Assembly (NCBI GenBank): GCA_025336685.1
Contig: GCA_025336685.1_4717.1
Strand: one strand, 5' to 3'
Source: Escherichia coli
GTDB taxonomy: Bacteria > Pseudomonadota > Gammaproteobacteria > Enterobacterales > Enterobacteriaceae
Length of the DNA stretch: 64,000 bases
Shown: positions 1 to 40,090 of the stretch, one piece after another
How the letters are laid out: every line of letters starts with the position of its first letter
Position numbering within the stretch: the stretch's first letter is position 1
Made by a program: the position numbers and the translations under genes
The notes under the pieces: model-generated
What the model was told of the DNA's origin: nothing
The model's input: only the letters and a program-made list of their open reading frames with translations
Databases searched by the model: none

Positions 1-61
1 TTCCAGTCTTTTACAACAGCAGGAAGTCGGCTATTGTAACCTTCAGGCAATCTCTCAATCA
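1..61 (-). CDS. hypothetical protein, 5' fragment (gene continues beyond window start)
   Basis: ATG at c(59..61) preceded by AGGAG about 9 nt upstream; reads MIERLPEGYNSRLPAVV... to the window edge; ATGA-type overlap with the stop of 55..492. Confidence 0.45.
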
Positions 62-492
62 TCGGTTTCTGCTCCTATATCACGTTTGAGGTCGGCCATC
101 AGTTTTTCATAATGGTCTTTTATCACGTTCGCAATAACGAATTGCACTTTTCTCACTAGCTGCTCATCGGCATCACTGAATGTAAAAAGCTCACACACAT
201 CAATCGGTTGTGATGCACCACCAATACGGTAGGTTTTAGTCGATGCGCGCTCAGCAATGACGGGGAGCGGTTCCACAGCGTTCAGTGCGGTACAGATTTC
301 CGTAACGAGTTCTTGAATGCTGCTTCTGCCTTCGATAATAACAGAACAGCGATAGACATCCACCTCGTTAAGCCGTTCAACGACATCCGCCCTGATTTTG
401 AAATTTCCAATAAGCGAGCTCACCAAAGTGCTATGCCAGTTGTTCACCACCCCGACCAACAGCGGATGATTCTCAAGATCTCTTCTATTCAT
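55..492 (-). CDS. hypothetical protein (145 aa)
   Basis: ORF with ATG start and GGAG RBS 7 nt upstream; no recognisable motif. Confidence 0.6.
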   Translation of the reverse strand: MNRRDLENHPLLVGVVNNWHSTLVSSLIGNFKIRADVVERLNEVDVYRCSVIIEGRSSIQELVTEICTALNAVEPLPVIAERASTKTYRIGGASQPIDVCELFTFSDADEQLVRKVQFVIANVIKDHYEKLMADLKRDIGAETDD

Positions 493-571
493 CAGTTAGC
501 TCCTAAATAGCGCTACAACTAATTTTTAATGGAAGGGAATATGTTTCCCTTCCTTGGGTTAGTTTAATGCG

Positions 572-847
572 TCATGCAGCTTTACAGCTCGCGTAACATA
601 CCAGTGTTCCGTTGTTGATTGCCTCAACAACATCCTGGGTCAGTTTGGTCGCAAGTTTATTATCCGCACTCGGTACGTAATAACCTTCTCCTGTTTCAGT
701 GACTAGGCGATAACGTACTAATCCTACCGCACGCTCGACGCGTAGCACCTTTTCAAGTTTGTGTTTGATGATCTTCGTCAGGCTGACGGCGTCTGATGCG
801 TAGATTGCTTTATAAACCTTGTTCTTTGCTGTCGGTTTCATCAACAT
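572..847 (-). CDS. hypothetical protein (about 91 aa)
   Basis: ORF track gives 572..910; internal ATG (M22) has AAGGAAA RBS and removes the overlap with 870..1703. Confidence 0.5.
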   Translation of the reverse strand: MLMKPTAKNKVYKAIYASDAVSLTKIIKHKLEKVLRVERAVGLVRYRLVTETGEGYYVPSADNKLATKLTQDVVEAINNGTLVCYASCKAA

Positions 848-869
848 GGTTTCTGTTTTCCTTGGTTTA

Positions 870-1703
870 TCACGATGCCAGGTCAGCGATATCCCAATGG
901 GTATAACCAACCTCGCGGATGAGCTCTGCTGTCTCTTCGAACAGTGGGGTAGGGCTAATAACCGGTAACCATTTCCCCTCTCGGGTTATCTTGACTTCGA
1001 CGGTCTGTAAGTTCGTGTTCCAACGAACATCATAAACCAGCGCATAGCCAAGAGGATGAACAAGTCCATCTTGGTTATATGTCTCCAAAAGACCTCGTAC
1101 GTCTTCTTCGTAGGATGTTTTCGACAAGACAGCACGTACTCGTCGCAGCCTCTTCGTGATAACCTTTCCCAGCTCGATGCTCTCCCAGCCTGTCATGACG
1201 CAAGGATTACCATCGCGACGAAGAGACCGAGAAATATAAATAGAATCGTTCGTGGTAAGGTGTACCCACCCAAGATCGCAGTATGCGACAGGTCGTGGTG
1301 ATTCTCCTTCGATAACCGTCGTTTCATCCAACATCGCCACAACACCGCAGTCTGCGAACTCCGGCGATACTTCATCCAGCATCTTAATACGGCTTTCTTG
1401 GCCGGTATGGTCAGGATCGACATGCGCGTAGTAGTAATTAGGCTCTATCGCACGGTATTGCGCAATGCTTCTACGGAAGTCGGTATCCTGCATTCCCAGC
1501 GGGTGGTGATACGCAAGCTGTTGCTTTATACCATCCTTGATTACCAACAGAAGATCTTCGCGATCTGATGCGGGATCCTCCACCACGATGTATTTAACAA
1601 TCGCTTTCAGGTTCTTAACGATGCTATCTGGAAGTTTCTCAATATCCCGCGCATCATAGACACGGTTAACTACAGTGTTTACAAGGTGTTTTGATAAGCT
1701 CAT
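870..1703 (-). CDS. hypothetical protein, paralogue family A (duplicated HPLG motif)
   Basis: 277-aa ORF, ATG start; shares YHHPLGMQD and LVHPLGY...VEVKI...W.P...HWDI.DL blocks with 1781..2638 and 2927..3709. Confidence 0.7.
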   Translation of the reverse strand: MSLSKHLVNTVVNRVYDARDIEKLPDSIVKNLKAIVKYIVVEDPASDREDLLLVIKDGIKQQLAYHHPLGMQDTDFRRSIAQYRAIEPNYYYAHVDPDHTGQESRIKMLDEVSPEFADCGVVAMLDETTVIEGESPRPVAYCDLGWVHLTTNDSIYISRSLRRDGNPCVMTGWESIELGKVITKRLRRVRAVLSKTSYEEDVRGLLETYNQDGLVHPLGYALVYDVRWNTNLQTVEVKITREGKWLPVISPTPLFEETAELIREVGYTHWDIADLAS

Positions 1704-1780
1704 CGATGATCTCTCTTTGTTATTTCTACCGATAACGCGGCATAAGGGGACAATGATGTCCCCGTGTTAGAATCAACTAC

Positions 1781-2638
1781 TTACGGCTTCAAATCCGAAA
1801 TATCCCATCGTACGTAACCTGTACGCTCAATTTCATGAACCAGTTCCTCGGTTTGTTTCTCAACACCGACAACGGGAACCCAATTCAACTGTTGGGTGCG
1901 TTTACCGATGTTAACCTCGACACGCTGCAGATCATCATTCCAACAAACCCCAGCCGGTTTCACAAAACCCAGCGGGTGGATAAAACTAAGATCGTCGCTG
2001 AAATCACGAAGAACGCGCAACGTATCGATGGTTGAAGGGTTATCACAGCGAACAAGGCGTACGCTTTGCAATTTATCGTATACCGCTCGAGCTACACGTT
2101 CATCGCGCCAGTTCGTCATGAATACCGGTTTTATACCACGTTTTAGAAGATGATCGATCTGGATTGCGATGTTATCGTGAACATACATGCAACCCTGTTC
2201 GGTTTCGGTGTTGCAGCCACCGTCCTCTAACCGGTTCGGATACGTCTGATGGTCTACCGTCACAGCAACTCCTTCAGCGAGCGTGGTCAACGGAAGAAGA
2301 CGTTGTAGACTCGTTATTGGATAATCAGGCGACATCCCAGGACGGATATGCGCCATCGTACCCCAACTGTCAGGGAATCCGTGTCGGTATGTGTATTGCC
2401 TGAATACCTCATCCTGCATCCCTAACGGATACCATCGTGCAAGCCGCTGTTGCTCGCCATCCTGAATAACAAAAAGCATTTCTTTGCGATTCGGCCATCG
2501 ATGATGTTCCACGGTCAAGCCATCAACAACCGGTCTTAAGTTGACTTTGATATGCTCGGGAAGTTTATCCACCTCTTCGCGACGGTAAAATCGATCGACG
2601 ACGATGATATCAACCTTCCCGTGATTGAACCAATTCAT
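1781..2638 (-). CDS. hypothetical protein, paralogue family A
   Basis: ORF track 1781..2671; M12 start (MNWFNHGKVDIIVVD) has GAGGGAG RBS, aligns with the paralogue N-terminus and abuts the stop of 2640..2930. Confidence 0.7.
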   Translation of the reverse strand: MNWFNHGKVDIIVVDRFYRREEVDKLPEHIKVNLRPVVDGLTVEHHRWPNRKEMLFVIQDGEQQRLARWYPLGMQDEVFRQYTYRHGFPDSWGTMAHIRPGMSPDYPITSLQRLLPLTTLAEGVAVTVDHQTYPNRLEDGGCNTETEQGCMYVHDNIAIQIDHLLKRGIKPVFMTNWRDERVARAVYDKLQSVRLVRCDNPSTIDTLRVLRDFSDDLSFIHPLGFVKPAGVCWNDDLQRVEVNIGKRTQQLNWVPVVGVEKQTEELVHEIERTGYVRWDISDLKP

Positions 2639-2639
2639 G

Positions 2640-2930
2640 TTAACTCCCTCTGTGGTGCGAAAACAAAACATCTAATTGCTCCCGTTGTTCTTTTAAGTAT
2701 GCGGGAAGCTGGTCTTCCCGTACCGTTCCGATTTCCAACGTGATATACCAGCGTTGTTCGGAAGCCTGCCATTGAAAACTGCTCTGTAACCGCAGGATGC
2801 TAGGATCGTGTACCTTGCTTGCACTGTAACGGTTGAACCAATTCAGGTATCCTGCTTTCCCTTCCTCATCAGCAACGTAACGCTGCACGCTGTTCTTCCC
2901 TTTGTTTTCGTATCCTGTTGCGTGTATCAT
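2640..2930 (-). CDS. hypothetical small protein
   Basis: ORF track 2640..2984; internal ATG (M19) with AGGAGA RBS gives ATGA overlap with the stop of 2927..3709. Confidence 0.5.
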   Translation of the reverse strand: MIHATGYENKGKNSVQRYVADEEGKAGYLNWFNRYSASKVHDPSILRLQSSFQWQASEQRWYITLEIGTVREDQLPAYLKEQREQLDVLFSHHRGS

Positions 2931-3709
2931 GCGAACGTTTCTCCTGTAACGTGTTGTGGGCGTTGTAGCATGGTAGCATCCCATTGTACGATCCGGCTCC
3001 GGCTTACCCGCATCATGACGGATTCATCGTCAAGCCCCGGTTGCGCAACCGGCAACCAACGTTCGTTAAGCACCTTCGCTTCAACCCGTTTCTTGCGTGG
3101 GTTGTAACGCACCTCGCTAACCCAAGCGAATCCAAGCGGATGCACAACCCGTGGATAATACGTGCGAAGCAATTGATGCATCCGATCCAGTACCTCCAAG
3201 CTCGCATCGGCCATGTATGGTTTCACCATGGTAAGCTTTTTGGTGTAATACGTCCCAACGGTATGGTTCGCCCACCCGGGAAGCACGTGATGGAATCCTA
3301 CCTGTAATTGTGTATTGCCGTTCACCTTCAGCCAACCGTATTGTCCAGCCGCACGTCCCTCGTCAGTATCGATCCATGTAAGTATATCGATGAACGCACG
3401 ATCGGTGATCTCGATGCGTTCCACCCGTTCATCCAACGCACCACGTACCACGAATCCGCTCGCGCTCACCCGCGCAGGATGCTGGCTGCGATGCGCGTAC
3501 CAATTCTTGTTGCCGGTAAGCAGGTAAGGGTACGTGTGAGCACCCCGCCAAACAACCGTTCCGTTCGTCCCATCAACACAGTGTACATACATCCCATCTT
3601 GACCGTTGTTGTAGCATGCTACCTTCACGCATTCGTTTTGAACATCGCTCGGTAACGCCAGGTATTCACCTTCGGTAAACATGGTATCAAAAATGATTTC
3701 TTCGTTCAT
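2927..3709 (-). CDS. hypothetical protein, paralogue family A
   Basis: 260-aa ORF, ATG with GAGGA RBS; C-terminal VVHPLGFAWV...VEAKV..RWLPV block shared with family A. Confidence 0.7.
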   Translation of the reverse strand: MNEEIIFDTMFTEGEYLALPSDVQNECVKVACYNNGQDGMYVHCVDGTNGTVVWRGAHTYPYLLTGNKNWYAHRSQHPARVSASGFVVRGALDERVERIEITDRAFIDILTWIDTDEGRAAGQYGWLKVNGNTQLQVGFHHVLPGWANHTVGTYYTKKLTMVKPYMADASLEVLDRMHQLLRTYYPRVVHPLGFAWVSEVRYNPRKKRVEAKVLNERWLPVAQPGLDDESVMMRVSRSRIVQWDATMLQRPQHVTGETFA

Positions 3710-4415
3710 CTAAAAAGATCCTCTGTTTTTCACGTTAATTAAACAACGTATTGATTTCTATTTAACGCAATACGAACATCGTACGTATGCATCATGAAGG
3801 TAATATAGTCGTGAAAGGATTTGCATTAAAGCAAGGGTAATTGTTTTGTTTTAAGAAGGGATGGATGATAGCGGTATCTGAAAGGAGAAGGATTTTAAGG
3901 AAGGTCTTGATTGAAGTAAGTGAAGAGGATGATTATTTCGGTTTAAGTAAGTAGGTAAGTTATCGTGTTATTGTTTTTTGTCTTAATGGTTTTATCGTTT
4001 TATCTGTTGTTTATATAAATCAAATTAAATTATAAAGTCAGTTAAGATGTTGGTTAACAACGTTCAACTCAAAAAACCATTTGTGATACTCTTCTTCACG
4101 TTGTTCATCAGAGTATCTCGTCTATACTCATTGCATTCGTATACGACATAACCGTTATACGCTAACGCTACGCTTATAGCTTGATAACTCTAAGGATAAA
4201 AACATAAACTCGCTTCGCTCGTTTAGTTTTTCTTTTTCTTAGAGTTATCCTGTTGCTCGTCTCTAAAGGACTTCGCTCCTCCCCCGTCCCCCGAAGGGGC
4301 CGAGGTCGTGGAAATTTTACTTTCCAAATACATTTACAACATCTGTAAACTTTTACTCCAGGTACTTAATCTTATCATTAGAAATTATAAAGAGAAGAAT
4401 AAACACAAACATAAA
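3710..4415. promoter_or_regulatory. 700-bp AT-rich non-coding region with short direct repeats
   Basis: No ORF of 60 aa or more; GTAAG/AAGG-type short repeats around 3880..3960; motif GGTAATATAGTCG (about 3798..3812) recurs near 40037; GC-rich inverted repeat around 4273..4312. Confidence 0.4.
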
Positions 4416-4447
4416 CCTTCCTCCAACCCAACAGGGAAGGAGGAAGG
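4416..4447 (-). terminator. conserved hairpin element, copy 1 (variant loop AACA)
   Basis: CCTTCCTCC-AA-CCC-AACA-GGG-AA-GGAGGAAGG immediately 3' of minus gene 4461..5354. Confidence 0.55.
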
Positions 4448-4460
4448 GATACAATGGTTA

Positions 4461-5354
4461 TTATTCGGAAACGTTGTAACCGAACACCGCTTTACCGTAG
4501 GTGTGAGTACCGTCAGCTAATGACAGCACCAGCACGTGGTTGTACGTAGCGTTAACACCCTTGTCGGTAGACTCGGTGGTAGCACCGTTGTAGACGAAAG
4601 TAGCCGTTTGCAGATTGGCTTTCAGCTCGGTGATGATCTCATCACCCACACCCGTCTGCTCTTTGATCAGCGTGGTCAGGTTACCCGCCAGGCTTTCATC
4701 GATCTTGGTTTCATCACTGGTAATAGCTTGTAAACCTGCGGTGTAGGTGCTGAAGTCTAACGGATAGGTTAACAGACGCGCTGAGGTCTTGGTACCATCG
4801 CCTTCATCAACGTAGGTTAACTTACCCAGGTTGGTAACCTTGATGATGTTAGCCAGATCCAGCGTGGTGTTATAAACTTTAACTTCAACGGAACCGTACC
4901 AAGCCAGCGAATCTTCTTTGGCCTGCAGGGTGATCGTCTGGATACCATGATCGTCGAAGGTAACCGGCGTAGCTAACGTATCGGCTTTGATGTCTTTCGT
5001 TTTATCTAAGAACTTCTCACCGGAAGGCGTGATCATACCGTAGCGTTGAGCTACAAGGTCAACCACGTCACCAATAGTGGTGTTAGCATTAACGTTAACG
5101 CGTACGGCGATCTTCTGGAACCACTTAGCCAGATCCAGACGATGATAGGTAACATCGCGGTCATTGAAGTAAGGTGTACCTTCACCAGGGCTAAGCGTTA
5201 AAGTTGCATCTGGAGCAGAATCGCTTTTGGATTTAAGAACGTATTTAAGGTCGGTGGGTTTGAAGTTGGCACCAGTGTCGGCGTTGAGTGTGTTAATCTC
5301 ATCAACGATAAGTTGCCAAGGTGTTTTTAAAGTAAGTGATACTTGAGCTGTCAT
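4461..5354 (-). CDS. hypothetical (probable virion) protein, paralogue family B
   Basis: 297-aa ORF, ATG with GAGGT RBS; shares the (Y/W)YxR(I/V/L)xLxxx aromatic block and overall size with 16415..17320, 18237..19088, 19099..20034. Confidence 0.7.
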   Translation of the reverse strand: MTAQVSLTLKTPWQLIVDEINTLNADTGANFKPTDLKYVLKSKSDSAPDATLTLSPGEGTPYFNDRDVTYHRLDLAKWFQKIAVRVNVNANTTIGDVVDLVAQRYGMITPSGEKFLDKTKDIKADTLATPVTFDDHGIQTITLQAKEDSLAWYGSVEVKVYNTTLDLANIIKVTNLGKLTYVDEGDGTKTSARLLTYPLDFSTYTAGLQAITSDETKIDESLAGNLTTLIKEQTGVGDEIITELKANLQTATFVYNGATTESTDKGVNATYNHVLVLSLADGTHTYGKAVFGYNVSE

Positions 5355-5497
5355 TTTCTACCTCTATGGTTGTTACATCACTCTCAAAAGATGTAAGTGT
5401 TTACAGAAATCAATATATTTTATATTAAATGTGAATATTATGGAGAACGACTCCGACTCTCCTTTTCGACCATCAAAAAATCAGAGGATACATAATC

Positions 5498-6040
5498 ATG
5501 GCCTTAGACTTTAACAAAGCAGCGAAATCCCTTCTGCTTGATCTGATCAACACCAAAGCAACCCGCGCACTGTCCGAAGAAGAACTGCAGTTCGGTACTC
5601 CGGCGGCATCTTCCGAAAATGCTAAGAACACCGTTATCCAGCTGAATGCTGCGGCTGAAGCAGAAAACCTGCAGGGTACTCAGCAGTTCTACTACGATCG
5701 TCTGGCTCTGTCTGACGTTTTCGCTGATGTAACCAGCGATGTTACTTTCGAACTGCCGCACGGTACTGACAGCATTAAGGCTTCTGAGCTGGTAAGCAAG
5801 CTGGTCACCAAGTTCGGTCTGGCTTCCCTGACCGGTGAAATCAATGAAGAAACCTTCCAGCTGTCCGCAGGTACTGTTGGTCAGGTAACCCTGACTGCGA
5901 TCGAGGGTGGTATGGTATATACCGGTACTCTGCAGGTTGCCCTGACCTACGCAGCAGCACCGAAAGACAATCTGGCAACCGTTCTGGCGGATAACGTAGC
6001 TGATGGCTTCGTGAAACCTGAAGTTGCTGTCGTTGGCTAA
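5498..6040 (+). CDS. Ala-rich small protein with strong codon bias (probable abundant structural or decoration protein)
   Basis: 180-aa ORF, ATG with AGAGGA RBS; near-exclusive use of preferred enteric codons (ctg, gaa, ggt, aac, ttc). Confidence 0.75.
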   Translation: MALDFNKAAKSLLLDLINTKATRALSEEELQFGTPAASSENAKNTVIQLNAAAEAENLQGTQQFYYDRLALSDVFADVTSDVTFELPHGTDSIKASELVSKLVTKFGLASLTGEINEETFQLSAGTVGQVTLTAIEGGMVYTGTLQVALTYAAAPKDNLATVLADNVADGFVKPEVAVVG

Positions 6041-6050
6041 TAAACACATA

Positions 6051-6100
6051 GAGCAATAGTATGGGTTTTGTACAGCTCGGCTATTGCTCTTCTACAATTT
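6051..6100 (+). terminator. putative hairpin terminator after 5498..6040
   Basis: 9-bp inverted repeat GAGCAATAG...CTATTGCTC followed by a T-rich stretch, just after the TAATAA stop. Confidence 0.35.
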
Positions 6101-6239
6101 GGTTGTAACAATCTGCGTGGTTGCACGCTTATCTTTCTCATTGAACGCTTCGTATGAAGCGTGGTGTTGAAAGGGTTGTGGATCTCCTCAAGCGGCCAGG
6201 GACCCAGACCAACCTGAATAAACACAAACACATGTTAAG

Positions 6240-6272
6240 CCCCTCCTCAGCCCTTATCGGGTTGGGGAGGGG
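6240..6272. terminator. conserved hairpin element, degenerate copy
   Basis: CCCCTCC-TCAG-CCC-TTATC-GGG-TTGG-GGAGGGG between convergent genes 5498..6040 and 6336..6971. Confidence 0.4.
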
Positions 6273-6335
6273 TCTTATACGTCTTTATACGTTTCGTTCG
6301 TTCTGGTGTGTTTTAGAACGGTTTACAGCAGGGTT

Positions 6336-6971
6336 TTATTCAACACTGAAACCGTTCAAACAGATGGCTTCGTAACGTTTACGTTCACGGCGTTTGCGTG
6401 CCTGCCAACCGTAAATGAACTTCTCGTCTTTCTCACGACGTTCCGCTAATTCGATGTAATAGGTGCTCTGCATGTCCAGCATTGCATCGATGAGATAATC
6501 CTTACCGGTTGCGCCACGCTTAGCGATGTAGGCATCAAGAGCCGCCAGTGTTTTGGGACCCATTGCGCCATCAGCGTCGATATTTTTCCAGTAAGTTTGG
6601 CGGTTGTTCATGACGTTCAGATAACGCTGAAGGTTCTTAACCGGTACGGTTTTGCCTGCGTTGATACCCAGGTCAAAGAGACGATCAGCCAAGAACACGG
6701 AACGTTTCATGACCTCATCAAGCTTCATCTTATCCCAGAAGTGGGTCTTGTAGATGAAGAACGCCATTTCCGTGGTAAGGTTACGCATATTACCGTCCCA
6801 CCCGAATTTCGTTTTCAGCGTGGTTTTGTACTGATCCGCAAGCGCTTTCGTAATGCCGTGGTTCGTGATCCCACCAGAGTCATCGGGATCGTCGACGTAA
6901 CCTGCTTCGATGCTAGTTTTATCACGAATGATAAATTCGCAAGTAAAATCTTTTTCAGTAATCTTGGCCAT
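6336..6971 (-). CDS. endolysin, GH108-type peptidoglycan hydrolase with probable C-terminal PG-binding domain
   Basis: 211-aa ORF, GAGGAG RBS; N-terminal EAGYVDDPDDSGGITNHGIT matches the GH108 EGGYxxDPxDxGGxTxxGIT signature. Confidence 0.75.
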   Translation of the reverse strand: MAKITEKDFTCEFIIRDKTSIEAGYVDDPDDSGGITNHGITKALADQYKTTLKTKFGWDGNMRNLTTEMAFFIYKTHFWDKMKLDEVMKRSVFLADRLFDLGINAGKTVPVKNLQRYLNVMNNRQTYWKNIDADGAMGPKTLAALDAYIAKRGATGKDYLIDAMLDMQSTYYIELAERREKDEKFIYGWQARKRRERKRYEAICLNGFSVE

Positions 6972-7097: not shown

Positions 7098-9146
7098 TCA
7101 AATACCTTTGGTTCCCTTCACGTGATGTGCAATTTCTTCAACCATTGCACGCAACGCACGAAGCTGCTGGTCGTGTTCGTACCAACCGCCCAACAGAACC
7201 CCGCTATACACCATGGTGTCAAGACTTAACAGTCCTTTATCTGATACGTTGATCATTTCCGGGAACTGTTCTTGAACACGCTGTGCGATGACACCGATCT
7301 TCTCTACATCAGGATCGTAGTTGTGACGGAAACGGGCAAGCCCGCTGCGCGCCATTTCACGTAAACGTTCGCTAAGAGATTCTGGATGGTCTTTCAGGTA
7401 ACGGATGTCATGTTTACTACGCTCATCTGAACGGATGTAAGCGTTAGGAACATCGATGTTACTGTTGAAGTACAGTGCGCTACCACCACCTGCAGAGTTA
7501 CCCCAATAGAAGCGTGTGATCTCCCCACCGCCATTTTCCGTGATGATAACATGTTTACCTAAACGCGTGCCACCATTGCCGTCAACGAAGACCAGTTTGT
7601 TTCCGCTGTAAGAACCCCAGAACAAACGTGTGTCGATGATGTGCGTTGCAGCGAGACGAGCGTTACGCGGTGTAGAATACACGGTGTTAACATCTTGCTG
7701 CGCTTGCGCATCGGAAGCGATACCGTAGTTCTGTACGTTCCCTAAACCTACCTGCGCTTTCGTAACAGCATGTGGGTTATCTCGACGGTTAGCGTGAGCG
7801 TTAACCAGATCGCCCGCCAGTTTTTGAATAGCCCAGTTGGTAGACTGTGGTGTCATGTAACGGTTCGTTGCAGAACCACCTTGCGCCTCAGCTTGGTTAG
7901 CGGTTGGGTAGTTCTCAACGCTTCCTAACCCCACTTGTGCTTTAGACACTTGGTGTGGGTTGTTCTTGTCAGCGATGTGTGCATTAAGCGGAACTAACGC
8001 AAAGGTCTCAATGGACGCTTTGGTTGTGTTCGGTGCCATTAATCGGTTAGCTGCAACACCGGCACGCGCTTCATCCTCAGACGCCATTGGGTAGTCTTGT
8101 ACATTCCCTAACCCAACCTGCGCTTTGGTTACCCTGTGTGGGTTGTTGTAATCGGCTTTATGTGCGTTAAGCGGAATCAATGCGAACTGTTCAATCGCTG
8201 CAACGGTACGCAACGGCGTCATGAAACGGTTGTTCGCGGTTCCGCCCTTCGCCTCGCTATCCGAAGCGGTAGGGAAGTTATCAACGTTCCCAAGGTTAAC
8301 CTGCGCTTTGGTGACGCTATGCGGGTTATCTTTACGGTTAGCGTGAGCATCGACTAGGTCACCAGCCAGTTTAGCGATTGCCCATCCAACCGTTTGTGCG
8401 GTCATGTACCGATCAGGTGCGGTACCGGCTTCTGACTCCGCCTTGTTTGCGGTAGGGTAGTTCTGTACGTTACCTAGTCCAACTTGGGCTTTGGTGGTTT
8501 CGTGTGGGTTATCGGTACGGTTAGCATGCGCGTAATGCAGATCGGTAAGATTTTTATCCGCTGCTTGCATGTCTTTGCGTAACTGATCGATTGCTGCCCA
8601 GAGACGGTTATCGGACGCAGCGTCGCCGATAAGTATCGCGGCTTTCAGTGAATAGATCGCTAAGCAAAGATGTTCGGTACCGTAGATAGCACTAACGTGG
8701 TGGATGTGTGGTTCAGGCGGATAAAGTTCCGGTTTGTTCTTGATGTCGTCCCAGTTGATCGGACGATCGTCAAGTTTGAGTTCTTCGATAGCCTGATATA
8801 ACGCGTCAATAAGACTTACGTAAACACCACCGATGATACGATAGTCGTTAACTAACGTACCCTCGATGTCATCGTTGATGATGGCGATAGCCGCACAGAT
8901 TTCTTTACCGGCGTAAAGCGTAGCGTCCTGATACAAGAAGATGGGTTTGTAGTCCACGCCTCGCACCAGTGTCTTACCGGTAAGCTTTTCAGTGATGACC
9001 AGACTTTCGGTGAAGAACGGTCCGCCGTCGAGGGCGTAACATTTATTCTCGGTTCGTGGAACGGTGTGCTCTTCACCAACGATGTGGTTGCTATCGAGCG
9101 TGCCGGTCCAGTCCTCGGGGTACTTCAGGGTAATTGGTGTTGACAT
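7098..9146 (-). CDS. tail fibre protein with C-terminal intramolecular-chaperone (S74-like) autoprocessing domain
   Basis: 682 aa; at least 4 tandem repeats of about 40 aa (NPHxVTKAQVGLGNVxNY...); C-terminal SDERSKHDIRYL matches the SDxRxK chaperone motif; N-terminus paralogous to 12825..14978. Confidence 0.8.
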   Translation of the reverse strand: MSTPITLKYPEDWTGTLDSNHIVGEEHTVPRTENKCYALDGGPFFTESLVITEKLTGKTLVRGVDYKPIFLYQDATLYAGKEICAAIAIINDDIEGTLVNDYRIIGGVYVSLIDALYQAIEELKLDDRPINWDDIKNKPELYPPEPHIHHVSAIYGTEHLCLAIYSLKAAILIGDAASDNRLWAAIDQLRKDMQAADKNLTDLHYAHANRTDNPHETTKAQVGLGNVQNYPTANKAESEAGTAPDRYMTAQTVGWAIAKLAGDLVDAHANRKDNPHSVTKAQVNLGNVDNFPTASDSEAKGGTANNRFMTPLRTVAAIEQFALIPLNAHKADYNNPHRVTKAQVGLGNVQDYPMASEDEARAGVAANRLMAPNTTKASIETFALVPLNAHIADKNNPHQVSKAQVGLGSVENYPTANQAEAQGGSATNRYMTPQSTNWAIQKLAGDLVNAHANRRDNPHAVTKAQVGLGNVQNYGIASDAQAQQDVNTVYSTPRNARLAATHIIDTRLFWGSYSGNKLVFVDGNGGTRLGKHVIITENGGGEITRFYWGNSAGGGSALYFNSNIDVPNAYIRSDERSKHDIRYLKDHPESLSERLREMARSGLARFRHNYDPDVEKIGVIAQRVQEQFPEMINVSDKGLLSLDTMVYSGVLLGGWYEHDQQLRALRAMVEEIAHHVKGTKGI

Positions 9147-31723: not shown

Positions 31724-31931
31724 CGCTCACCTCCATCAGATTGAAAATTATCATGCATAACGCATTTCCCTTTTCTTGTTCTTATCAAACTGACAGCCGA
31801 CGGTTTCCAGTATCGCCCCCAGCGCGAGAACGACCTTACGTGTTGTCTATGCCTTATTAATCGCAGGCTTCTGTCACCTAGGTAATGTAAGCGTCAAATT
31901 TTTTCTATTCGCAACGATAAACGGCATAAAT

Positions 31932-39202: not shown

Positions 39203-39976
39203 TTATTCAGGATCGGCGTAGAAATGGTGAGGATAGCCGGAGTACGATCCTGCGTTACCGGCTATGGATTCTTTCTGGGAATCGACGACGAGCGCATAGA
39301 ACTGTCGGGAATTTGTTAGCGTTGAGAAATAAGCGGAAAGGACTTTTTCATTCAACGCATCGCAAGGTAGACAGGTGCGACCGCAAAACGTAACGATACG
39401 GCCGTCAGGATAGATCTCACGAATCATTCTCCACTCACCGATATCCACTGGTGATGGTGCTGCTACACCACCTGTTATCGTTAAGTAACGATCGTACGTG
39501 GTATGGCATTCAGGATGAATATAGATCGGCTTGTTCGTTTCGACAGGTTCCGAAGTGTCTCGACGACTAAGGAGTTCAACGACTTCAAGATAAATCGTTG
39601 GTAGATCGCGGAGAATACCGGTGTTACGACGTTTCTTTGTGATTCGCGGACGAATCTCGTTAAGAGCGTATTCGAGCTTACGTTCAGCTTCGTACGCATC
39701 GAGTTTTATTAGGTGGCCCGGTTCATCGGAATGATCCTGAGTTATGTAAACGAAATACGTGTTGTCTTTTGCAGCGCGAAAGATTCGAGCGACCTTAAAT
39801 GTTTCTACAGTGCGATAACCAAGGCGCGATTGATTTTCCACAGGAGAAAATATCCAATGTCGTCCTTCGTCCGCCCCAACAATTTCGTTGAAACTATCCG
39901 TTTGTTCTGGGACCTGGTAGTCAGCCATTAATGTATCAAGAGCGTCATCGGCCAGTTTGGTGTAAATATCTGTCAT
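39203..39976 (-). CDS. hypothetical protein, paralogue family C
   Basis: 257 aa, ATG with GAGGA RBS. Confidence 0.65.
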   Translation of the reverse strand: MTDIYTKLADDALDTLMADYQVPEQTDSFNEIVGADEGRHWIFSPVENQSRLGYRTVETFKVARIFRAAKDNTYFVYITQDHSDEPGHLIKLDAYEAERKLEYALNEIRPRITKKRRNTGILRDLPTIYLEVVELLSRRDTSEPVETNKPIYIHPECHTTYDRYLTITGGVAAPSPVDIGEWRMIREIYPDGRIVTFCGRTCLPCDALNEKVLSAYFSTLTNSRQFYALVVDSQKESIAGNAGSYSGYPHHFYADPE

Positions 39977-40090
39977 GTTTGTATCCTCGGTTGTTAAGAG
40001 AAATTTACAATGATAACAGTAACCGTTGCTATCACCTAGGTAATATAGTCGCGAAATAAACTGGAGTAATACGCTTAAGACAGTATAGAA

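What the first reader, a model, noticed from the sequence alone, without database searches (positions are those of the whole stretch)
870..3709. Tandem triplet of paralogues with an internally duplicated HPLG motif
Three adjacent genes (277, 286 and 260 aa) share two blocks, an N-proximal (Y/W)(H/Y)PLGMQD and a C-terminal (V/I)HPLG(Y/F)...W....LQ.VEV.I.....W.PV..........(H/R)WDI.DL, suggesting an ancient internal duplication followed by gene triplication. Conserved His/Asp-containing motifs hint at an enzymatic fold I cannot place.
Basis: seen in the sequence. Interest (0 to 1): 0.5.

Follow-up and report, generated by a model that had tools for sequence, protein, structure and literature searches.

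The report
Early-gene paralogue family in Goslar-like phage
Three related genes of unknown function lie at the head of an early-expressed operon in a Goslar-like jumbo phage of E. coli; they belong to a fast-evolving, variable-copy family found only in that phage group, and the proposed internal duplication is not supported.

Summary
The window comes from a relative of the nucleus-forming E. coli jumbo phage Goslar. The three minus-strand genes are real paralogues: G1 870-1703 (277 aa), G2 1781-2638 (285 aa) and G3 2927-3709 (260 aa). BLASTP gives 5e-38, 1e-14 and 2e-6.

Two details of the observation are wrong. A 96-aa gene separates G3 from G2, and the N-proximal PLGMQD block occurs only in G1 and G2.

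The "internal duplication" fails: N-half against C-half gives an HHalign probability of 1.3%, repeated 3- and 4-mers are expected by chance, and the two motifs sit in different secondary-structure contexts.

A phiKZ-type early promoter (3798-3816) precedes G3. Published Goslar RNA-seq shows the orthologous block gp021-gp014 is early.

Copy number is 1-4 per phage. Goslar carries a clean deletion of G1 and G2. G2 is a chimera. dN/dS is 0.28-0.44, against 0.03-0.07 for neighbouring genes.

Best reading: dispensable early accessory proteins that act on the host. Their biochemistry is unknown, and an enzyme role is neither supported nor excluded.

The parts
3798..3816 (-). Early (virion RNA polymerase type) promoter motif TTTCACGACTATATTACCT. 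It lies 89 nt upstream of the G3 start codon and heads the leftward operon.
   Evidence: It contains the phiKZ/201phi2-1 early-promoter core TATATTAC (PMC7058600 Table 2; PMC7598289). The extended 19-nt motif occurs exactly 3 times in the window, against 0.29 expected even with 3 mismatches allowed. Each copy sits at the head of a block whose Goslar counterpart is early in RNA-seq. The motif is conserved upstream of Goslar gp21 and in L005 and L008.
2927..3709 (-). G3, 260 aa. It is the most divergent paralogue and the ortholog of Goslar gp021 (89% aa identity). HPLG is at 3131-3142, WLPV at 3047-3058 and WD at 2978-2983.
   Evidence: AlphaFold model: pLDDT 71, confident at both ends.
2640..2930 (-). 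A 96-aa gene (Goslar gp020 homologue), not a family member. Its start overlaps the G3 stop codon (ATGA), which suggests translational coupling. It is much better conserved than G3.
   Evidence: Identity to relatives is 82-94% and dN/dS is 0.15. It has no hit to the family HMM.
1781..2638 (-). G2, 285 aa. It is a chimera: the N-terminal ~2/3 is of the 283-285-aa subtype (G2a) and the C-terminal third is of the 280-aa subtype (G2b). YPLGMQD is at 2411-2431, HPLG at 1967-1978, WVPV at 1871-1882 and WD at 1802-1807.
   Evidence: Segment identities: 94-95% to P0039 over alignment columns 1-200 but 52% over the C-terminus, where it is 74% identical to P0054.
1746..1763 (-). GC-rich hairpin GGGGACAUCAUUGUCCCC in the 77-nt spacer between G2 and G1. 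It has no U-tract, so it could be an RNA stability or processing element or a weak attenuator.
   Evidence: z = -2.05 for the spacer. The terminator scan did not call it.
870..1703 (-). G1, 277 aa. HPLGMQD is at 1485-1505, HPLG at 1047-1058, WLPV at 960-971 and WD at 891-896. It lacks the 20-aa acidic C-terminal tail found in the 297-aa orthologues.
   Evidence: AlphaFold model: pLDDT 88.2, pTM 0.87.
864..2676 (.). Segment holding G1 and G2 that has no counterpart in Goslar, which has ~70 nt here.
   Evidence: blastn of the window against Goslar. The Goslar junction equals the sequence that precedes G2b in L009/L007, fused to the last nucleotides before the gp019-like start. This is a deletion signature, and L005 shares it at 99% identity.
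572..847 (-). A 91-aa gene (Goslar gp019 homologue), the next gene of the same operon.
55..492 (-). A 145-aa gene, a further downstream member of the same leftward early block. The 145-aa homologue is present at this position in L002, L003 and L006-L009 but gave no tblastn match in Goslar. The operon runs off the left end of the window.
   Evidence: The Goslar block gp014-gp021 is uniformly early.

Best explanation
G1, G2 and G3 belong to a lineage-restricted paralogue family with four subfamilies: G1, G2a, G2b and G3. The family is found only in Goslar-like nucleus-forming jumbo phages of Escherichia, Shigella and Salmonella.

Shown:
- The genes head a leftward operon. It starts at a virion-RNA-polymerase early promoter (3798-3816) and runs G3, the 96-aa gene, G2, G1, the 91-aa gene, the 145-aa gene and onward.
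- In Goslar, the orthologous block gp021-gp014 is transcribed at full level when infection is arrested at the early-infection vesicle stage, where only the early programme runs.
- The proteins are soluble, about 30 kDa and mildly acidic. They have a small beta-rich N-terminal module, a poorly conserved middle, and a conserved C-terminal alpha/beta module carrying invariant H-P-x-G, W and W-D.
- The fold has no detectable relative.
- The locus varies between phages: 1 to 4 copies, a clean two-gene deletion in Goslar, a G2a/G2b chimera in this window, and alleles that assort independently between phages.
- Amino-acid evolution is 4-10 times faster, relative to synonymous change, than in neighbouring structural and lysis genes.

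Inferred:
- These are dispensable early accessory proteins that act in the host cytoplasm on host components (host takeover or counter-defence).
- The conserved C-terminal module would supply a common binding or catalytic site built from the His/Asp/Trp cluster.
- The divergent N-terminal and middle parts would set target specificity.
- Multiple diverged copies would broaden the range of host variants handled.
For: - Paralogy.
- Restriction to Goslar-like contigs: and the exhaustive profile search (7 family representatives out of 1.84e9 proteins, plus one short family fragment; one further hit is spurious).
- Early promoter. All three motif sites coincide with the three early blocks of the Goslar span covered by the window.
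- Early expression of the ortholog: Supplementary Table 2 of bioRxiv 10.1101/2023.09.20.558163 gives gp014-gp021 a log2 fold change of +0.8 to +1.4, against -3 to -7 for both flanks.
- Probably not a virion component: gp019-gp021 are absent from the held part of the Goslar virion mass-spectrometry table, while gp022 is present at ~580 copies.
- Dispensability: Goslar, a viable laboratory phage, lacks G1 and G2.
- Copy number of 1-4 and independently assorting alleles.
- Chimera.
- Selective regime: dN/dS is 0.28 (G1), 0.30 (G2) and 0.44 (G3), against 0.07 for the endolysin and 0.03 for the fibre.
- No signal in defence, Pfam, NCBIfam or PHROG libraries.
Against: - There is no direct functional evidence of any kind. 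The host-interaction role rests on timing, variability and dispensability, and these also fit relaxed constraint on a marginal gene.
- Overall dN/dS is below 1, so positive selection has not been demonstrated.
- Early expression was measured only for the Goslar G3 ortholog. For G1 and G2 it is inferred from their position inside the same operon.
- The virion mass-spectrometry table was truncated in the copy I could read.
- The spatial clustering of H216, D271 and the tryptophans is inferred from secondary-structure topology, not measured on coordinates.
Confidence: 0.5

Rival explanations
1. The proteins are a new enzyme family. The invariant His (HPLG) and Asp (WD), with H94 in most members, would form a catalytic or metal-binding site that modifies a host or phage substrate early in infection.
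For: H216 and D271 are invariant in 49 of 49 sequences, down to ~18% identity. H94 is present in 43 of 49 and E/D256 in 45 of 49. The conserved residues lie at strand ends of the C-terminal sheet, so they plausibly lie on one edge of it.
Confidence: 0.2
2. They are single-stranded nucleic-acid-binding proteins built from small OB-like beta-barrels, serving early replication, recombination or RNA handling.
Confidence: 0.1
3. They are structural or compartment-associated proteins of the virion, the early-infection vesicle or the nuclear shell, like the other multi-copy families of Goslar (PF12699, DUF7941).
For: They lie next to the DUF7941 virion genes (the gp22- and gp23-like genes), and Goslar has other multi-copy paralogue families that are structural. 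The neighbouring proteins gp017 and gp018 are detected at trace level in virions.
Against: gp021 shows early-class rather than late-class transcription, unlike every structural gene around it. gp019-gp021 are not found in the held virion mass-spectrometry table. There is no Pfam DUF7941 or PF12699 signal.
Confidence: 0.07
4. One reading: each protein arose by an ancient internal duplication of an HPLG-containing unit, followed by gene triplication.
For: PLG occurs twice in G1 and G2, and both copies are conserved among their orthologues. HHalign aligns the two motifs with a single-comparison E-value of 0.04.
Against: The HHalign probability is 1.3% over 25 columns. Repeated 3- and 4-mers occur at chance frequency. 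G3 lacks the N-proximal motif. The two motifs occupy non-equivalent positions relative to the flanking strands and helices.
Confidence: 0.04

Closest known systems
Goslar gp021 (QBO63814 / HOV27_gp021), hypothetical protein
   Same: It is the direct ortholog of G3: 89% aa identity, the same length (260 aa), the same position downstream of the gp22 DUF7941 gene, and the same upstream promoter motif.
   Different: Goslar has only this one family member. The window has two more (G1, G2), which Goslar lost by a ~1.77-kb deletion. No paper in the searched library discusses gp21.
phiKZ-type early operons transcribed by the virion RNA polymerase
   Same: The TATATTAC core lies within a longer conserved motif at the head of a block of small, unannotated genes. 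The Goslar counterpart is expressed when only the early programme runs.
   Different: The extended consensus here (TTTSRCGMYTAYATTACCT) is specific to the Goslar group. The transcription start site itself was not mapped here.
Other multi-copy paralogue families of Goslar (DUF7941 'fibre cloud' proteins, PF12699 injected proteins)
   Same: They are lineage-specific families with several diverged copies per genome and no clear structural relatives (bioRxiv 10.64898/2026.04.21.720040).
   Different: Those families are late-expressed, abundant virion proteins. The present family is early-class and was not found in the virion table. There is no sequence relationship.
OB-fold ssDNA-binding proteins (PRD1 P12, baculovirus LEF-3)
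   Same: They are the best, but non-significant, structural neighbours of a ~55-65-residue sub-domain in both models.

Membership tests
Chimallivirus early (virion-RNAP) transcription unit | AT-rich conserved promoter motif (phiKZ/201phi2-1 core TATATTAC) upstream of the first gene, on the coding strand | tested here: met
   TTTCACGACTATATTACCT lies at 3798-3816 (-). There are three sites in the window, against 0.29 expected, and all are intergenic and at the heads of early blocks.
Chimallivirus early (virion-RNAP) transcription unit | Transcription independent of phage-nucleus formation (expressed from the early-infection vesicle) | tested here: met
   This holds for the Goslar ortholog only. 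gp021 has a log2 fold change of +1.2 to +1.4 under ChmA knockdown, and the whole block gp014-021 is unchanged while both flanks fall 16- to 100-fold. It was not measured for G1 or G2.
Internally duplicated (repeat) protein | Significant profile-profile or structural similarity between the two halves | tested here: not met
   HHalign of the N-half against the C-half gives a probability of 1.3%. K-mer repeats are at chance level. The motifs are in non-equivalent secondary-structure contexts.
Pfam DUF7458 / PHROG 1783 | Score above the curated threshold, reproduced across family members | tested here: not met
   G1 scores 16.1 bits against a cut-off of 27. Only 1-2 of 49 members hit.
His/Asp-dependent hydrolase or metalloenzyme | A spatially clustered, invariant catalytic or metal-binding set of residues in a recognisable catalytic fold | tested here: inconclusive
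   H216 and D271 are invariant, but H94 is lost in G2b. No catalytic fold was found.
Known anti-defence / host-takeover proteins | Homology to a characterised inhibitor, or a demonstrated host target | not testable with these tools
   No anti-defence library was available. PADLOC (defence systems) gave nothing.

The most novel reading that the evidence does not exclude
The family is a previously unseen protein fold specific to Goslar-like chimalliviruses. Its invariant His/Asp/Trp cluster would form a new catalytic or ligand-binding site through which the phage neutralises variable host factors (for example defence systems that act before the phage nucleus exists). The 1-4 diverged, recombining copies would be an arms-race array that helps set host range.
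Probability: 0.15. Interest if true: 0.6.

Novelty: new member of a known kind. Interest (0 to 1): 0.3.

Why it matters
Chimalliviruses protect their DNA inside a vesicle and then a protein nucleus. Their mRNAs and early proteins, however, are exposed in the cytoplasm. What the many unannotated early genes do is a large gap in the biology of these phages.

This locus is a compact natural experiment. A single early promoter drives one to four diverged copies of one protein family, with natural deletion and chimera variants already available in sequenced relatives. If the family acts on host factors, comparing Goslar (one copy) with three- and four-copy relatives on panels of E. coli, Shigella and Salmonella strains would be a direct test.

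As it stands, this is one more lineage-specific family of unknown function. It is useful for annotating Goslar-like phages and for defining their early promoter, but it is not surprising in kind.

Tried and rejected
- Pfam, PHROGs, NCBIfam and PADLOC scans of the three proteins, their operon neighbours and all 49 aligned members gave only inconsistent sub-threshold noise: DUF7458, LPD16 and phrog_1783 in 1-3 members.
- A profile search of PDB sequences found nothing (best E 0.72).
- The afdb50 and afdb_sample libraries were not available.
- The exhaustive HMM search hit P0065 (798 aa, 6 stretches), which proved to be a low-complexity repeat protein and therefore spurious.
- The bare octamer TATATTAC is not enriched in the window (2 observed, 1.7 expected). 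Only the extended motif and its positions carry weight.
- Rfam found nothing in 1-6500.
- The sigma-70 promoter and intrinsic-terminator scans of 1-4600 were at or below shuffle expectation.
- The family HMM found no further copies among all six-frame ORFs of the window.
- A literature search for Goslar gp21 found no paper.
Full report
**What the window is**

Megablast of 500-4400 finds only Escherichia phage vB_EcoM_Goslar, at ~90% identity. Goslar is a 237-kb nucleus-forming jumbo phage (Chimalliviridae). Other parts of the window match Goslar at 95-97%. The window spans Goslar gp018 to gp064. Base composition is uniform at 0.44-0.52 GC, so the region of interest is not compositionally foreign.

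**Checking the observation**

The three ORFs exist on the minus strand:
- G1: 870-1703, 277 aa.
- G2: 1781-2638, 285 aa. It starts at ATG 2638, preceded by GAGGGAG. The longer 296-aa ORF from 2671 would overlap the upstream gene, and homologues start at MNWFNHG.
- G3: 2927-3709, 260 aa.

They are clearly homologous:
- G1-G2: 5e-38, full length, 31% identity.
- G1-G3: 1e-14 over the C-terminal ~130 residues.
- G2-G3: 2e-6 over the C-terminal ~130 residues.

The C-terminal signature (V/I)HPLG(Y/F)...W(L/V)PV...WD is in all three. In an alignment of 49 family members, the invariant positions (G1 numbering) are L24, G70, A93, W173, L186, V189, L206, H216, P217, G219, W245, W270 and D271.

Three details in the finding are wrong:
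- The genes are not all adjacent. A 96-aa gene (2640-2930, the Goslar gp020 homologue) sits between G3 and G2, and its ATG overlaps the G3 stop codon.
- The N-proximal PLGMQD block is present only in G1 and G2.
- HPLG as such is duplicated only in G1.

**Is there an internal duplication?**

No evidence supports it.
- A profile of the N-terminal half of the G1/G2 group against a profile of the C-terminal half gives an HHalign probability of 1.3%. It aligns only 25 columns around the PLG.
- Shuffled versions of each protein contain about 6-8 repeated tripeptides, and 27-35% of G2/G3 shuffles contain a repeated tetrapeptide. A shared PLG or HPLG is therefore unremarkable.
- In the confident AlphaFold model of G1, residues 67-70 come after a three-strand unit (E32-43, E48-57, E60-66) and before helix 74-81. 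Residues 216-219 come after helix 197-208 and before the strands E220-229, E234-238 and E246-249.
- The motifs are therefore not at equivalent positions of a repeated unit. Each is conserved in its own right.

**Extent of the paralogy**

I built separate alignments of the G3 group and the G1/G2 group and compared them:
- C-terminal domain: HHalign 99.2%, E 1e-19.
- First ~35 residues ((I/V)xDxxYxxxExxxLPxxIK): 61.5%, E 8e-5.
- Middle region: no similarity.

**Distribution**

- Word-indexed searches with each paralogue found 14, 23 and 26 proteins. None has a Pfam domain. Wherever the contig is long it is 235-250 kb, from E. coli, Shigella or Salmonella samples.
- tblastn of G1 against 50,697 phage records hits only Goslar gp21.
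- An exhaustive HMMER search with the 49-sequence profile against 1.84 billion representative proteins returned seven family representatives and one short family fragment. One further hit is a spurious low-complexity protein.
- The family clusters into four subfamilies: G1 (277-298 aa), G2a (283-298 aa), G2b (279-300 aa) and G3 (235-264 aa).
- No further copy exists elsewhere in the window.

**Fold**

**Expression context: promoter**

The 750-nt non-coding stretch upstream of G3 contains TATATTAC, whose 3' end is 91 nt from the start codon. This is the early-promoter core reported for phiKZ and 201phi2-1 (PMC7058600 Table 2). In RNAP-encoding jumbo phages, such AT-rich motifs centred near -10 define virion-RNAP early promoters (PMC7598289).

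The octamer alone is not enriched in the window. Its two exact copies and one single-mismatch copy, however, share a 19-nt motif, TTTSRCGMYTAYATTACCT. That motif occurs exactly three times in the window, against 0.29 expected even with three mismatches allowed. All three copies are intergenic, on the coding strand, and 64-159 nt upstream of a gene start.

**Expression context: published RNA-seq**

The Goslar data come from bioRxiv 10.1101/2023.09.20.558163, Supplementary Table 2. They compare a control with a ChmA knockdown at 30 min after infection. The knockdown arrests infection at the early-infection vesicle, where only the virion RNAP programme runs.

Within gp018-gp064 there are exactly three blocks unaffected by the arrest: gp014-021, gp037-040 and gp044-047, all with log2 fold changes of +0.7 to +1.4. 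Everything else falls by 3 to 8 log2 units.

The three motif sites map to the heads of exactly these three blocks:
- upstream of gp021;
- between the late major head gene gp041 and early gp040;
- between late gp048 and the gp047 position.

Goslar carries the motif at the same three places, and so do L005 and L008 upstream of their G3 genes.

I conclude that G3 is the first gene of an early operon. G2 and G1 lie on the same strand inside it, are tightly packed, and have no intrinsic terminator before them. They are therefore inferred to be early too. A GC-rich hairpin without a U-tract sits between G2 and G1 (1746-1763).

In the Goslar virion mass-spectrometry table (bioRxiv 10.64898/2026.04.21.720040), gp019-gp021 do not appear in the part I could read. 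The neighbour gp022 is present at ~580 copies, and gp017 and gp018 at trace levels. The stored table is truncated, so this is supportive but not conclusive.

**Evolutionary behaviour**

- Copy number varies at the same locus. There is one family gene in Goslar and L005. There are three in the window, L002, L003, L006, L007 and L009. There are four in L008 (G3, the 96-aa gene, G2a, G2b, G1).
- Goslar has lost two genes. Its gp020-gp019 junction is the sequence that precedes G2b in L009 and L007 (92-99% identity), fused directly to the nucleotides just before the gp019-like start. In those phages that sequence lies inside the 3' end of G1. L005 has the same junction at 99% identity. With the deep divergence of the paralogues, this points to a ~1.77-kb deletion in the Goslar lineage rather than a gain elsewhere. 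It also shows that G1 and G2 are dispensable for a phage that grows well in the laboratory.
- The family is far more divergent than its neighbours. Protein identity between the window and relatives is 60-64% (G1), 41-94% (G2) and 42-90% (G3). It is 96-99% for the tail-fibre-like protein, 90-100% for the endolysin and 82-94% for the 96-aa gene.
- Alleles assort independently. L006 has a 94% G2 but a 43% G3, while L003 has a 90% G3 but a 51% G2.
- The window's G2 is itself a chimera. It is 94-95% identical to a G2a protein over the first 200 alignment columns but 52% over the C-terminus, where it is 74% identical to a G2b protein.
- Pairwise dN/dS (Nei-Gojobori, my script) has medians of 0.28, 0.30 and 0.44 for G1, G2 and G3. 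The endolysin is 0.07, the fibre 0.03 and the 96-aa gene 0.15. The genes are real and under purifying selection overall, but they evolve much faster than their surroundings.

**Mechanism**

The following points are shown:
- the genes form a paralogue family;
- the family is restricted to Goslar-like phages;
- it is an early-class transcription unit;
- G1 and G2 are dispensable;
- the locus is highly plastic.

The following points are inferred:
- The proteins act in the host cytoplasm early in infection, on host components that vary between strains (host takeover or counter-defence).
- The conserved C-terminal module provides the shared activity.
- The variable N-terminal and middle parts provide specificity.

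The conserved residues HPLG, WLPV and WD lie at the ends of the strands of the C-terminal sheet. They could form one surface patch or pocket, but I could not measure this because model coordinates are not exposed.

The enzyme reading remains possible at about 0.2. H216 and D271 are invariant, but only two invariant polar residues exist, H94 is lost in the whole G2b subfamily, and no catalytic fold was found. A nucleic-acid-binding reading rests only on sub-threshold OB-like hits. A structural role conflicts with the expression class.

**Comparison with what is known, and novelty**

G3 is the ortholog of Goslar gp021, an unstudied hypothetical protein. No paper in the searchable library mentions it. 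The transcription unit meets the tested criteria for a phiKZ-type early operon. The protein family belongs to no described family.

In kind, it is another lineage-specific, multi-copy, fast-evolving early gene family of a jumbo phage. That is a known phenomenon, so I rate it a new member of a known kind with modest interest (0.3).

The most novel reading still open is a new fold with a new His/Asp/Trp active site, serving as an arms-race array. I give that about 0.15.

Noticed in passing
window 31880-31898 (-) and 40038-40056 (-): There are two further copies of the 19-nt early-promoter motif TTTSRCGMYTAYATTACCT. One lies between the major head gene (gp041 homologue, late) and the gp040 homologue (early). 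The other lies between the gp048 homologue (late) and a variable early block. With the copy at 3798-3816, they mark all three early blocks in the window and give a usable early-promoter consensus for Goslar-like phages.
   Followed up: yes
window 4183-4249 (-), inside the 750-nt non-coding stretch 3710-4460: A long, stable hairpin lies downstream of the gp22-like gene: a 12-bp perfect stem GGAUAACUCUAAG/CUUAGAGUUAUC plus an inner helix, at -25.8 kcal/mol and z = -4.9 against shuffles. There is no Rfam match. A GC-rich stem at ~4280-4300 looks like the gp22 terminator. Window 3867-4065 has no counterpart in Goslar.
   Followed up: partly
window 4461-5354 (-) and 5498-6040 (+): These are homologues of Goslar gp22 and gp23, the DUF7941 proteins recently proposed to form a head-to-tail 'fibre cloud' on the baseplate. 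The gp23-like gene exists in two very different allele types among relatives: ~90% identity to the window in most, but 48% in L002 and L005.
   Followed up: partly
window 7098-9146 (-): A 682-aa tail-fibre-like protein has about six tandem ~55-aa repeats (DNPH.VTKAQVGLGNV.NYP.A...A..G....R.MTP) and a C-terminal Peptidase_S74 (intramolecular chaperone) signal. It is 96-99% identical across all relatives, in sharp contrast with the family studied here.
   Followed up: no
window 39203-39976 (-): The first gene after the 40038-40056 early promoter is a 257-aa ORF with no megablast match in Goslar, which has the short genes gp047 and gp046 at this position. This looks like another variable early-block cassette.
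   Followed up: no
window 2640-2930 (-) and loci L002, L007-L009: The 96/99-aa gp020-like gene overlaps the G3 stop codon by 4 nt (ATGA) in the window, Goslar and L002, L007-L009; in L006, where G3 is shorter, the two genes do not overlap. It is far better conserved than G3. The 99-aa version is followed by G2b or, in Goslar, by nothing; the 96-aa version precedes G2a. It may be a partner protein of G3.
   Followed up: partly
L002, L006-L009 (G1 orthologues), compared with window 870-1703: Most G1 orthologues are 297 aa, with a 20-residue acidic, probably disordered tail (PQQTEENRNHVDETNSEEQSL) whose coding sequence overlaps the start of the next gene. The window's G1 (277 aa) lacks this tail.
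   Followed up: no
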